From a virus (Duplodnaviria; Caudoviricetes): DNA of 64,000 nucleotides. Below the pieces are notes generated by a model, which did not search any database, had not been told where the DNA came from, and saw only the letters and a program-made list of their open reading frames with translations. This document shows, piece after piece, positions 60,744 to 62,645 of the stretch; within the stretch, counting starts at the first letter, position 1; every line of letters starts with the position of its first letter. The stretch covers positions 32,001 through 96,000 of the IMG/VR virus record IMGVR_UViG_3300042997_002652. One strand, 5' to 3'. The translations under genes and the position numbers were made by a program.

Positions 60744-61520
60744 TTAGCCTTGCACCCATGTCAGAGGTTGTGAATTATCAACATATCGTTTGAGTTCATC
60801 AATCAATTTCTCTATCATAGCATAGCCTTCACTTTTCATTGCTGCGCCGTTAAGTGATGTACCACCACTGGGTCCAGCAATAGTAGCAAACTTTTCTCTG
60901 GCTTCACCAATGATAGTTTTTAAAACCGCAAGTGTATAATCTTGAATCCAAGTACCAGTAGAAGGGTCTTGTAACAATGTAGCTTCAGGTCGCAGGATAT
61001 CCGCCCAAATAAGGATCTTTTCACCTGAACCCTTAAAATCACGAACTATTCTAAGTGTCTTAGATACAGGATCAAATGTATAAGTCAAGTAACCACCAAA
61101 CATTCTAGCAGCTAACTCAACATAACCAGCATAAAAATCGTAAGTAGCCAAGCCACCGGCAGAGTTATAATTAAGCAAGTAAGTATTTAATATCGCACTT
61201 GAAAATGGATCAAATGAGCTGGCGCCGGGGCCAGTTTCTAATCCAACTGTTCTACGGTATAAGCATCTTACATTAATAAATTCACTGGGAAGTGTATAAG
61301 TATCTACATTTTTTTCTATAGTAAAAAGTGTGTAAGTTTCCTGTGTGGAATTCTGCGCACGTTGTCTATATGTAGATATAGCATAATTATATGCTACTTC
61401 CAAGTGCTCAGGATCAACTTCAAGATCAATTATATTTTGACCTAATCTTAATAAACATGAATTAAATAATTGCTCTTTTAATTGAGTAAGATTAAGATTA
61501 GTTGGAATTGTTTGGATCAT
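60744..61520 (-). CDS. Neck protein (gp13-like)
   Basis: LRLGQNIIDLEVDPEH, EAREKFATIAGPSGGTSLNG; GATAAATA at 61547-61554. Confidence 0.8.
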   Translation of the reverse strand: MIQTIPTNLNLTQLKEQLFNSCLLRLGQNIIDLEVDPEHLEVAYNYAISTYRQRAQNSTQETYTLFTIEKNVDTYTLPSEFINVRCLYRRTVGLETGPGASSFDPFSSAILNTYLLNYNSAGGLATYDFYAGYVELAARMFGGYLTYTFDPVSKTLRIVRDFKGSGEKILIWADILRPEATLLQDPSTGTWIQDYTLAVLKTIIGEAREKFATIAGPSGGTSLNGAAMKSEGYAMIEKLIDELKRYVDNSQPLTWVQG

Positions 61521-61599
61521 TTTTCATGGTTCCTTTATGTTATAACTATTTATCTGGTTACATTTAGTTTACATGAAATAATTATTCTAAGGGCATGGC

Positions 61600-61975
61600 G
61601 AGTAGATATAAAATCTACAAGCCACGGGTTATTCTTGAGGTACTTAGGCAACGATGAATTCAAACATTACAGTGGAGGATTGTCTATGTCTCACTAACCC
61701 ATAAAGGGAGTTTGCCGTATTCGCTGTTAACGTTCAAACGCTATTCACCGAGGAGTTTGAACCAGCCCAAGAGTATCTATCGCAATTACCATCTCTTGGC
61801 AACAACAACCATTTAGACACAAGAAACGTTTCTAACAAGGGTTAGACGTTTATGGCATCCCTATTCGGGGTAGTCTTGTGAATGGAGTCACTGATTTTAC
61901 TCAGTTCAAGCTTAGACTCGCTTCTATACCCACACAACACGGATTGAGGTGGGACTTGGATGTTATTGTGGCTAA
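61600..61975 (-). ncRNA. Candidate large structured ncRNA (350-400 nt), family unassigned
   Basis: No credible ORF; about 43% GC by hand count (61621-61980); at least eight stems, including a 6 bp long-range closure. Strand inferred from flanking genes. Confidence 0.6.
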
Positions 61976-61998
61976 CACTTACCTTGCTTGATAAACAA

Positions 61999-62217
61999 TT
62001 ATTCTATAAGTTTAAATATCAAAAACAAATCTTTAAGGGGATGATTCCATGGATCTTTTACACCATATGCTGTACAGCCAAATCTAGTATCATCGTCTAA
62101 GTGATCTTTTCCTTTGGTATAGTTTTCCATGTCAATACAAGTAAGTACTGTACCTTCAGGAATCTTTGCTAATTCTTCTGGTGTAAAAAGATAAAGATCA
62201 TCCTCCCATTTTTGCAT
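61999..62217 (-). CDS. Hypothetical protein
   Basis: 72 aa; DDDTRFGCTAYG. Confidence 0.6.
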   Translation of the reverse strand: MQKWEDDLYLFTPEELAKIPEGTVLTCIDMENYTKGKDHLDDDTRFGCTAYGVKDPWNHPLKDLFLIFKLIE

Positions 62218-62645
62218 TATAAATCATTCTCTTTTCTATTTTCAGAATAGAATGGATCAAACGTGCCGCCAGGATATCTTGCTTCAAGCTTTTTAACGTT
62301 TTCAGCAATCACATCGTTTGGATCTAAACCTAATGCTCTGCAAGCATTGATCCAATACCAAATAATATCGCCTAGTTCACGTTTCATGTGGTAAACGTTT
62401 TCATCACTCAATTCTTTACCTTGAAAAATGATTTTTTTGTTTACCTCGATAAACTCTCCGCTTTCTGCTGCTAAACCCAAACATGCAGTAATCAGCAACG
62501 GAACATTTACTGCAGGCCCAGTTACATCTTCTTTATTTTGCGAATTTAGCTCTTCACACCTTTGCTGAAAAATGTGAAAATGATTGCTTGGGTTACTAGT
62601 TACAACCTCTACAAAATCTTTGTACTTGTTTAAATCAATATTCAT
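62217..62645 (-). CDS. mazG: MazG-like NTP pyrophosphohydrolase
   Basis: LGLAAESGEF..VNKK...ELGDIIWY (ExxE...ExxD), NVKKLEARYP. Confidence 0.85.
   Translation of the reverse strand: MNIDLNKYKDFVEVVTSNPSNHFHIFQQRCEELNSQNKEDVTGPAVNVPLLITACLGLAAESGEFIEVNKKIIFQGKELSDENVYHMKRELGDIIWYWINACRALGLDPNDVIAENVKKLEARYPGGTFDPFYSENRKENDL

What the first reader, a model, noticed from the sequence alone, without database searches (positions are those of the whole stretch)
61600..61975. Large unassigned structured RNA between the MazG operon and the neck gene
Seen: about 480 nt without a credible ORF in a gene-dense genome, about 43% GC, with many stems. Plus-strand coordinates: AGCCAC 61620-25/GTGGCT 61968-73 (long-range closure), GGGTTA 61626-31/TAACCC 61695-700, GTTCAAAC 61732-39/GTTTGAAC 61755-62, CCAAGAG 61767-73/CTCTTGG 61793-99, CACAAGA 61818-24/TCTTGTG 61874-80 enclosing two hairpins, GAGTC 61885-89/GACTC 61915-19 enclosing CTGA/TCAG, and GTAGAT/ATCTAC 61602-18. 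On the minus strand there are echoes of RNase P (ACGGCAAACUCC; CAAG-UC-CCAC able to pair with GUGGCUUG like a bulged P4) but the P1-P3 layout is missing. Inference: a novel phage ncRNA or ribozyme.
Basis: partly seen in the sequence, partly recalled or inferred. Interest (0 to 1): 0.75.

Follow-up and report, generated by a model that had tools for sequence, protein, structure and literature searches.

The report
New large structured RNA in jumbo phages
The gap between the MazG operon and the neck gene of this 267-kb uncultivated phage holds a real, about 420-nt non-coding RNA gene whose intricate fold is preserved by compensatory mutations in over 100 related phage contigs, matches no known RNA family, and has no known function.

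Summary
Window 61521-61998 has no conserved ORF. It contains an RNA element of about 418 nt (61998..61581, minus strand, the strand of the flanking genes).

- **Distribution:** I found homologues in more than 100 IMG/VR and metagenome contigs. There are none in 50,697 cultured phage records or in 185,579 species genomes.
- **Structure:** A 58-sequence alignment supports 14 helices (70 pairs). 95.5% of cells are canonical pairs, against 80.1% in column shuffles. 58 pairs show double (compensatory) changes, and 0 of 500 shuffles reach this. A further hairpin (m) near the 3' end is supported by inspection only.
- **Fold:** It includes a 5' H-type pseudoknot, a well-supported long-range 8-bp pseudoknot, optional GNRA-capped hairpins and near-invariant loops and junctions. 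G-U versus A-C counts place the RNA on the gene strand.
Five of seven are confirmed. The two long-range closures and the RNase P echoes are not.
- **Known families:** Rfam 15 (4,227 families) gives no hit for the window or 11 homologues. RNase P, group I intron, tmRNA, GOLLD/ROOL/OLE and pRNA memberships all fail.
- **Genomic setting:** The RNA is accessory. Many close relatives have an empty site, and one 92%-complete relative has no copy. It always sits at the end of an early-type gene block, just before a late promoter that opens the structural or packaging genes.

Function is unknown. My best guess is a trans-acting folded RNA, either a ribozyme or a ribonucleoprotein (RNP) scaffold.

The parts
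61581..61998 (-). Whole conserved RNA element (about 418 nt here; 385-488 nt in homologues)
   Evidence: Limits of conservation in alignments of homologues. It begins directly after the stop codon of the 72-aa ORF and ends about 27 nt before the late-promoter-like box.
61960..61984 (-). 5' H-type pseudoknot: S1 (AGGU, 61984-61981) pairs into the loop of hairpin Pa (61978-61973 with 61965-61960)
   Evidence: In relatives S1 covaries: AGGU/ACCU, AAGU/ACUU, GAGU/ACUC, GGGC/GCCC. Pa covaries: CCAC/GUGG, CCGC/GCGG, AUAC/GUAU, CUAUG/CAUAG. In the window itself S1 is only GGU/GCC.
61929..61953 (-). Hairpin Pb (CCCAC / GUGGG)
   Evidence: 97.9% canonical, with 3 double-change pairs (CCGUC/GACGG in most relatives). 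G-U 11, A-C 0.
61818..61880 (-). Helix c (61880-61874 / 61824-61818). It encloses the conserved junction GACUACC..GGAUGC and the long hairpin d (61850-61842 / 61835-61825)
   Evidence: Helix c: 7 of 7 pairs have double changes and 98% are canonical. Hairpin d: 90-98% canonical.
61767..61799 (-). Hairpin e with a near-invariant 19-nt loop (61792-61774, ..GUAAUUGCGAUAGA..)
   Evidence: 100% canonical, with 6 of 7 pairs showing double changes. 38 G-U against 0 A-C, which fixes the strand. Loop GYGAU covaries with AUCRC after the pseudoknot strand (GCGAU/AUCGC to GUGAU/AUCAC; seen).
61723..61766 (-). Helix f (GCUG/CAGC) enclosing hairpin g (61761-61756 / 61738-61733). The loop of g carries the 5' strand of pseudoknot h (61750-61743)
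   Evidence: f is 100% canonical. g is 93% canonical, and all 6 pairs have double changes.
61652..61659 (-). 3' strand of the long-range pseudoknot h (AUUCAUCG). It pairs with 61750-61743 (CGGUGAAU)
   Evidence: 8 bp, 96.5% canonical, 6 double-change pairs, and 0 of 500 shuffles reach this. It covaries even in the most divergent members, e.g. UUAUGAAAG/CUUUCAUAA.
61661..61714 (-). Helix i (61714-61710 / 61665-61661) enclosing hairpin k (61708-61698) and hairpin j (61696-61692 / 61674-61670). Hairpin j has a highly conserved loop at 61691-61675
   Evidence: i, k and j are 89-97% canonical with 3-5 double-change pairs each. The j loop is invariant in the 12 homologues found through the neck protein. 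It varies slightly in members found with a different anchor.
61597..61623 (-). Hairpin m, with a nearly invariant 3' strand AUCUACUCGCC
   Evidence: Stem kept with changes such as GAAUAG/CUAUUC and GGUG/CACC. The register of the 5' strand differs between subgroups, so it was judged by eye, not by column counts.
61631..61640 (-). Direct repeat R1 (CCUCAAGAAU)
   Evidence: It changes in parallel with R2 in several lineages. 9 same-base parallel changes; permutation p<0.0005, not corrected for phylogeny. Further cases appear.
61581..61593 (-). Direct repeat R2 (CCCUUAGAAUAAU), the 3' end of conservation
61547..61554 (-). Late-promoter-like box GATAAATA, between the RNA and the neck start codon (61520). 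Not part of the RNA
   Evidence: The same box precedes the neck gene in relatives that lack the RNA, and it follows the RNA in divergent lineages. That it works as a promoter is inferred from T4-type late promoters (TATAAATA).

Best explanation
This is the gene for a previously unclassified structured non-coding RNA of about 390-490 nt. It is carried as an accessory gene by two lineages of uncultivated jumbo phages.

Shown:
- The RNA lies on the strand of the flanking genes.
- It folds into a compact multi-domain structure of at least 14 covarying helices.
- The fold has a 5' H-type pseudoknot, a well-supported 8-bp long-range pseudoknot joining a hairpin loop to a distant 3' segment, optional GNRA-capped peripheral hairpins, and near-invariant loops and joining regions.
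- It encodes no protein.

Inferred:
- It is made as the last part of the upstream early/middle transcription unit. It starts 0-5 nt after the stop codon of whatever ORF lies upstream, or after a hairpin with a U-tract. No conserved promoter precedes it.
- It acts in trans as a folded particle, either a ribozyme or a scaffold or decoy bound by a protein or RNA, rather than as an antisense RNA or a leader. Three things point this way. The conserved positions are junctions and loops, as in ribozyme or RNP cores. The gene to its 5' side varies. A late promoter separates it from the gene to its 3' side.

The target is unknown. Two weak hints point to RNA metabolism or translation: the clade's heavy investment in tRNAs and tmRNA, and a co-occurring PTP-type phosphatase.
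For: Conservation:
- blastn found homologues in 14 of 80 loci fetched through the neck protein.
- A 17-nt loop motif found about 68 true viral homologues (79 hits) and 35 metagenome stretches.
- A second, independent anchor found 14 more divergent members.

Structure:
- RNAalifold gave 44 pairs, 30 of them with compensatory changes.
- The hand-built model has 74 pairs, 94.2% canonical, with 53 double-change pairs. Slid controls mostly fall to 10-60%.
- In 58 sequences, 70 pairs are 95.5% canonical, against 80.1+-0.4% in 500 column shuffles. 58 double-change pairs compare with 34.3 in shuffles, and 0 of 500 shuffles reach the observed values.

Strand:
- G-U 141 against A-C 68 overall.
- Helix e has 38 against 0, j has 36 against 7, and Pb has 11 against 0.

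Non-coding: no conserved open frame.

Not a known family.

Accessory:
- Most relatives have only 36-69 nt between MazG and the neck gene.
- A 333-kb, 92%-complete relative has no copy of the loop motif.

Trans-acting:
- The upstream neighbour varies.
- The RNA occurs in a second phage lineage about 2 kb upstream of the large terminase gene.
- A late-promoter-like box follows it.
Against: - No transcript evidence could be obtained, so expression, ends and abundance are unknown.
- No promoter or terminator of its own was found. In many loci an intrinsic-terminator-like hairpin lies directly upstream, which fits read-through poorly.
- Single-sequence folding energy is only marginally better than shuffles.
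- The shuffle controls ignore phylogeny, and many sequences are related.
- The loop motif used to collect most members inflates its apparent invariance.
- The 3' tail (hairpin m plus two direct repeats that change in parallel) could be a DNA- or protein-recognition site rather than RNA structure.
- Nothing tested here bears directly on function.
Confidence: 0.6

Rival explanations
1. It is a cis-acting element of the early/late boundary. The structured RNA would act on the transcript that carries it. It could block or allow read-through into the late structural genes, protect the 3' end of the upstream operon, or keep the neck gene silent on early read-through transcripts.
For: - In both lineages the RNA sits at the end of an early-type block, 25-50 nt before a late-promoter-like box that opens the structural or packaging genes.
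- It has no promoter or terminator of its own.
- Two alternative partners exist for some segments: UCGCC occurs twice, and AGGU can pair with ACCU or with GCCU of repeat R2. That would suit a switch.
Against: - About 400 nt with two or three pseudoknots is far larger than known antitermination or insulator RNAs.
- Close relatives do without it, with the same MazG, late promoter and neck arrangement.
- An insert can separate it from the neck gene by about 1.5 kb.
- Alternative pairings were not supported statistically.
Confidence: 0.15
2. It is a group I intron or a group-I-derived ribozyme, possibly mobile. That would explain its presence or absence at one site.
For: - Divergent members carry AGAUAUAGUC in the j loop, identical to the J8/7-P7 consensus of group I introns as I recall it. 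The junction of helix c holds (U)UCACAAGACUAC, which resembles the R element.
- It shows presence/absence polymorphism at a fixed site.
- It has GNRA-capped peripheral hairpins and a pseudoknotted core.
Against: - There is no hit to the Rfam group I model at E<=10 in the window or E<=1 in 11 homologues.
- The R-like and S-like motifs do not covary. All four combinations GACUA/GUCUA x UAGUC/UAGAC occur.
- The S-like motif lies in a hairpin loop and the R-like motif in a covarying helix.
- The order of helices does not fit P3-P4-P6-P7-P3'-P8-P7'.
- It is intergenic, behind unrelated upstream ORFs. The insert also brings its own upstream hairpin, so no exons would be rejoined.
Confidence: 0.05
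3. It is a phage RNase P-like RNA that serves the clade's large tRNA arrays.
For: - Relatives encode 7-47 tRNAs and a tmRNA.
Against: - There is no hit to any Rfam RNase P model.
- Both resemblances dissolve in the alignment. CAAAC is paired in helix i, and CCCAC is paired in hairpin Pb. The proposed partner GUGGCUUG is UUUUGGCU or similar in relatives.
- Phages with tRNA arrays lack the RNA: G002 has 28 tRNAs and no copy.
Confidence: 0.02
4. At least the 3' part is a DNA-level signal: a protein-binding site, an extra promoter or a recombination site. The rest would be conserved for a reason other than RNA folding.
For: - The two direct repeats flanking an inverted repeat change in parallel, as sites for one sequence-specific protein would.
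- A sigma-70-like match (TTTATA-17-TAGAAT) overlaps this part.
- One strand of hairpin m is invariant while the other drifts.
Against: - The other 350 nt show strand-specific G-U pairs and dozens of compensatory changes, which DNA signals do not need.
- Hairpin m itself covaries in divergent members.
- Promoter-like matches in the region are fewer than in shuffles.
Confidence: 0.08

Closest known systems
GOLLD, ROOL and OLE: large 'ornate' bacterial and phage ncRNAs of unknown or partly known function
   Same: - It is several hundred nucleotides long, with many helices and pseudoknots.
- It has conserved junctions and variable periphery.
- It is phage-borne, with no coding capacity and no obvious cis target.
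- It was found by comparative analysis. This is the kind of object it most resembles.
   Different: - It has no sequence or structure match to their Rfam models.
- It is smaller (about 400 nt).
- It is not next to tRNA genes. There are none in the window.
- It is found only in uncultivated jumbo-phage contigs.
- Multimer formation is untested.
Group I intron core (J8/7-P7 'S' and 'R' elements)
   Same: Short motifs AGAUAUAGUC and UCACAAGACUA, GNRA hairpins and a pseudoknotted core.
   Different: The motifs do not pair or covary. The helix order differs. It is intergenic. There is no model hit.
Bacterial RNase P RNA
   Same: Similar size. It has a long-range pseudoknot, and two short sequence resemblances appear in the window copy.
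   Different: The resemblances are not conserved, and those residues are paired otherwise. There is no P1-P4 layout and no model hit.
phi29 packaging RNA (pRNA)
   Same: A phage-encoded, stand-alone structured RNA. Here the gene lies beside head-tail connector or terminase genes.
   Different: There is no hit to the Rfam pRNA model. It is more than twice the size. It is dispensable in close relatives. Nothing tested links it to packaging.
Candidate structured RNAs of viruses and phages catalogued from IMG/VR (PMC10690425)
   Same: Same data source and the same kind of evidence (covariation in viral contigs), so this RNA may be among the more than 10,000 unnamed candidates.
   Different: The paper's text mentions no MazG, neck or jumbo-phage element. 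Its supplementary tables are not held, so overlap could not be checked.

Membership tests
Structured ncRNA (generic) | Base pairs kept by compensatory changes beyond chance; no conserved ORF | tested here: met
   70 pairs are 95.5% canonical, against 80.1% in shuffles. 58 double-change pairs, and 0 of 500 shuffles reach this. RNAalifold shows 30 of 44 pairs compensatory. No conserved frame.
Any Rfam 15 family (4,227 models, including RNase P, tmRNA, group I/II, GOLLD, ROOL, OLE, HEARO, raiA, pRNA) | Covariance-model match | tested here: not met
   No match at gathering score in the 64-kb window. None at E<=10 in 61400-62100 apart from a chance snoRNA hit inside the neck gene. None at E<=1 in 11 homologous loci.
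RNase P RNA | P4 pseudoknot formed by conserved CR-I and CR-V strands | tested here: not met
   The proposed CAAG-UC-CCAC / GUGGCUUG pairing is absent in relatives. CCCAC pairs with GUGGG and covaries as CCGUC/GACGG.
RNase P RNA | Unpaired conserved CR-II/CR-III (T-loop) sequences in the specificity domain | tested here: not met
   In ACGGCAAACUCC, CAAAC is the 5' strand of helix i (CAAAC/GUUUG, AAAAG/CUUUU, UAACC/GGUUA).
Group I intron | P7 helix between the R and S elements (G-binding site) | tested here: not met
   GACUA/GUCUA and UAGUC/UAGAC occur in all four combinations, with no covariation.
Group I intron | Interrupts a gene; exons join into one reading frame or RNA | tested here: not met
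   It is intergenic behind at least six unrelated upstream ORF families. Empty sites show that the insert brings extra flanking sequence.
Group I intron | Self-splicing with guanosine | not testable with these tools
   Needs an in vitro assay.
tmRNA / tRNA | tRNA-like domain and tag reading frame | tested here: not met
   ARAGORN finds nothing in the window. The genome's tmRNA lies elsewhere, at G000:168987-169409.
Riboswitch or 5' leader of the neck gene | Lies in the 5' UTR of the regulated gene in all members | tested here: not met
   A late-promoter-like box lies between the RNA and the neck gene. Other members sit in another gene context. Promoter use itself is inferred.
Ornate large RNAs that form homo-oligomeric cages (ROOL, GOLLD, OLE) | Self-assembly through intermolecular contacts | not testable with these tools
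   Needs native gels or cryo-EM.

The most novel reading that the evidence does not exclude
This is a new class of large functional RNA specific to jumbo phages. It would be either a ribozyme or the RNA core of a phage RNP that acts on host or phage RNA metabolism, translation or virion assembly. It is carried as an accessory gene at the early/late boundary, and it is possibly linked to a co-occurring PTP-type (RNA 5'-end?) phosphatase.
Probability: 0.3. Interest if true: 0.9.

Novelty: categorically new. Interest (0 to 1): 0.8.

Why it matters
Few large RNAs with many pseudoknots are known. Most of those characterised have turned out to be ribozymes, ribonucleoprotein (RNP) cores or, more recently, self-assembling RNA cages.

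Here is a new one with unusually clean comparative support. It is carried by jumbo phages that also encode tRNA arrays and a tmRNA, and it is clearly optional between close relatives. That pattern is typical of host-takeover or anti-defence functions.

The alignment and secondary-structure model reported here make the RNA directly testable by transcription, probing, cleavage assays and cryo-EM.

"Categorically new" refers to the RNA family. It matches no curated family, but the broad category of orphan large phage ncRNAs is known, and its function is not established.

Tried and rejected
- **RNase P reading:** rejected.
- **Group I intron reading:** rejected despite the AGAUAUAGUC motif.
- **tRNA/tmRNA:** none found.
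- **Plus-strand RNA:** rejected on G-U against A-C counts.
- **Closing helix between the 5' leader and 3' tail:** the local pairings look compensatory by eye (UUGG/CC(U)AA against CAAG/CUU(A)G). However, duplex energies equal those of shuffled tails (-6.87 against -6.91 kcal/mol). It stays unproven.
- **Internal partner for repeats R1 and R2:** none is consistent across sequences.
- **Protein partner next to the RNA:** the 72-aa ORF upstream in the window is only one of at least six different upstream neighbours. Pfam finds nothing in it.
- **Own promoter:** no conserved motif upstream.
- **Cultured relatives:** no blastn match for three representative elements in 50,697 phage records.
- **Bacterial copies:** the one hit in species genomes (L161, a 'Bacteroidetes' MAG contig) is a chance match in unrelated sequence that looks protein-coding.
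- **Literature:** no paper holds the conserved strings.
- **Whole-genome co-occurrence:** one candidate only (141-aa PTP-like phosphatase). It could not be tested further because the other contigs are 14-39% complete.
- **Not used:** build_rna_model and the count of structure pairs. The full model exceeds the size limits, so I did equivalent counts and shuffles in Python.

Full report
**What is at the site**

Window 61521-61998 lies between two minus-strand genes. One is the neck/head-tail adaptor gene (60744-61520; PHROG 211, E 2e-25). The other is a 72-aa ORF (61999-62217) whose start overlaps the stop of a MazG pyrophosphatase gene (62217-62645). The gap holds only short ORFs. The genome is a 267-kb IMG/VR virus record and carries one copy of the element. 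Its neck protein is at most about 40% identical to those of cultured jumbo phages such as Atu_ph07 and PA5oct.

**Known families**

- Rfam 15 gives nothing at gathering score in the whole window.
- It gives nothing at E<=10 in 61400-62100, apart from a chance snoRNA match inside the neck gene.
- It gives nothing at E<=1 in 11 homologous loci.
- ARAGORN finds no tRNA or tmRNA.
- Folding of the single sequence is barely better than shuffles (z -1.8 and -2.1). The stems in one sequence therefore prove little.

**Homologues**

- The neck protein retrieved 80 related loci. In most of them MazG is followed after 36-69 nt by the neck gene.
- In 14 loci the gap holds a homologue of the element at 71-96% identity. 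Other loci hold protein-coding inserts at the same point: 288-aa and 195-aa ORFs and an ACP-like ORF. The site is therefore an insertion hot spot, and the element is optional.
- A 17-nt loop motif found 79 viral stretches (about 68 true) and 35 metagenome stretches.
- The single hit among 185,579 species genomes (L161) is a chance match in coding sequence.
- A scan with a different anchor, the e-loop, added 14 more divergent members.
- No cultured phage has the element at blastn sensitivity. No paper in the library holds its conserved strings.
- A 333-kb, 92%-complete relative with an empty site has no copy of the motif anywhere.

**Structure**

An alignment of 50 non-redundant copies (A1) folded by RNAalifold gives 44 pairs. 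30 of them have compensatory changes. I derived a fuller model by hand. In 5' to 3' order on the minus strand it reads:

1. An H-type pseudoknot. AGGU pairs into the loop of hairpin Pa. Both stems covary, for example AAGU/ACUU, GGGC/GCCC, and CCAC/GUGG to CUAUG/CAUAG.
2. Hairpin Pb.
3. A variable hairpin.
4. Helix c, enclosing a conserved junction and the long hairpin d.
5. An optional GUAA-capped hairpin.
6. Hairpin e, with a near-invariant 19-nt loop.
7. Helix f, enclosing hairpin g.
8. Helix i, enclosing hairpins k and j.
9. An 8-bp pseudoknot h between the loop of g and the segment just after helix i.
10. An optional GNRA hairpin.
11. Hairpin m, flanked by two direct repeats.

Counts on the 14 helices that can be scored by alignment column:

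- **49 sequences:** 74 pairs, 94.2% canonical, 53 with double changes. Partners slid by 1-2 columns mostly fall to 10-60%.
- **58 sequences including divergent members:** 70 pairs, 95.5% canonical, against 80.1+-0.4% in 500 column shuffles. 58 double-change pairs compare with 34.3 in shuffles, and no shuffle reaches the observed values.

These shuffles ignore relatedness, so the numbers are not probabilities. Against that, the compensatory changes recur in separate subgroups and in two phage lineages.

There is possibly a third tertiary pairing. The e-loop GYGAU would pair with AUCRC after pseudoknot h (GCGAU/AUCGC to GUGAU/AUCAC in two lineages). However, the same change also occurs in the 3' strand of hairpin m, so the partner is ambiguous.

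**Strand**

G-U pairs outnumber A-C 141 to 68 overall. Most of the A-C cells come from the misaligned variable hairpin. Helix e has 38 G-U and no A-C, Pb has 11 and 0, and j has 36 and 7. The RNA is therefore on the minus strand of the window, the strand of the genes.

**Not coding**

The longest stop-free stretches differ in frame, strand and place among the 49 copies.

Five of the seven stems are the covarying helices g, e, c, the extended variable hairpin, and m. The two long-range closures and the RNase P echoes are particular to the window copy. They conflict with covarying local helices.

**Setting and expression (inferred)**

- The RNA begins 0-5 nt after the stop codon of whatever ORF lies upstream, or after a hairpin with a U-tract. 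No motif is shared upstream.
- About 25-50 nt after its 3' end comes a GATAAATA-type box. The same box precedes the neck gene in relatives without the RNA.
- A second phage lineage carries the RNA about 2 kb upstream of the large terminase gene, among small unknown ORFs.
- So the RNA marks the end of an early-type block just before the late structural or packaging genes. It probably rides on the upstream transcript.
- I could not test expression.

**Oddities**

- *Parallel repeats.* The two direct repeats around hairpin m (CCUCAAGAAU and GCCUAAGAAU) change in parallel in several lineages: AGUAAUG twice, AAGCAG twice, AGAAGAU twice, AAAAGAUAG twice. I found no internal complementary partner. 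One protein or one external RNA that reads both copies would explain this.
- *Group I look-alike.* The j loop of divergent members reads AGAUAUAGUC, the group I J8/7-P7 consensus as I recall it. A group-I R-like string lies in helix c. The two do not covary, and the architecture does not fit.

**Search for a partner**

I compared the whole genome with two complete or near-complete RNA-plus relatives, one more RNA-plus record, and two RNA-minus records.

- One ORF is present in all four RNA-plus genomes and in neither RNA-minus genome. It is a 141-aa protein with the PTP signature HCHAGLCRS (weak Pfam DSPc hit, E 5e-4, below the curated cut-off).
- In the most divergent RNA-plus genome this ORF lies about 1.1 kb downstream of the RNA.
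- With six genomes this is a lead, not a finding. The further records are fragments and showed nothing either way.
- The clade encodes 7-47 tRNAs and a permuted tmRNA, with or without the RNA.

**Verdict**

This is a real, conserved RNA family with at least two pseudoknots and no match to any curated family. It is accessory to uncultivated jumbo phages. Its function is open. I favour a trans-acting folded RNA (ribozyme or RNP scaffold/decoy) over a cis element, a group I relic, RNase P or a DNA signal.

Noticed in passing
window 61521-61560 (minus strand); loci L003, L020, L022, L025 and others just upstream of the neck gene: In relatives without the RNA, the late-promoter-like box GATAAATA sits inside an inverted repeat (e.g. 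CCTGATAAATA..TATCAGG). The 3' arm of the repeat contains the Shine-Dalgarno sequence of the neck gene. Read-through transcripts from upstream would hide the ribosome-binding site, while transcripts started at the late promoter would not. Phage T4 uses this device for some late genes.
   Followed up: partly
L008, L014, L018, L023, L031, L037, L052 between MazG and the neck gene: The MazG-neck junction is an insertion hot spot. Different relatives carry there a 288-aa ORF, 191-197-aa ORFs, a 325-aa ORF, a 67-aa ORF or a 77-aa acyl-carrier-protein-like ORF instead of, or beside, the RNA.
   Followed up: partly
window 61581-61593 and 61631-61640 (minus); the same places in L109, L185, L199, L201, L203, L101: The two direct repeats flanking hairpin m evolve in concert, with the same substitutions in both copies in several lineages. 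This is unusual for RNA and hints at one reader for both copies.
   Followed up: partly
L197, L199, L200, L201, L203, L212, L216 (j loop): Divergent members read AGAUAUAGUC in the j loop, the same ten bases as the group I intron J8/7-P7 consensus. Close relatives of L108 differ from it by just these two bases.
   Followed up: yes
G000:15107-15532 (outside the window; L298:7608-8033, minus): A 141-aa PTP/dual-specificity-phosphatase-like protein (HCHAGLCRS). It is present in all four RNA-carrying genomes compared and in neither genome without the RNA. In G007 it lies about 1.1 kb downstream of the RNA.
   Followed up: partly
G000:168987-169409 (outside the window); G006, G002, G008: The phage encodes a permuted (two-piece) tmRNA with tag ANDEFALEDIRLAA. 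Relatives carry arrays of 27-47 tRNA genes.
   Followed up: no
window 62215-62219: The MazG stop and the 72-aa ORF start overlap (TAATG), which suggests translational coupling. A sigma-70-like match reported there overlaps the start codon and is probably chance.
   Followed up: no
L161 (NVRZ01000093.1): The only match in species genomes to the loop pattern is a 10.5-kb contig of a 'Bacteroidetes' MAG. Only the pattern itself matches, and the rest of the sequence is unrelated and looks protein-coding. It is still a row of alignment A1.
   Followed up: yes
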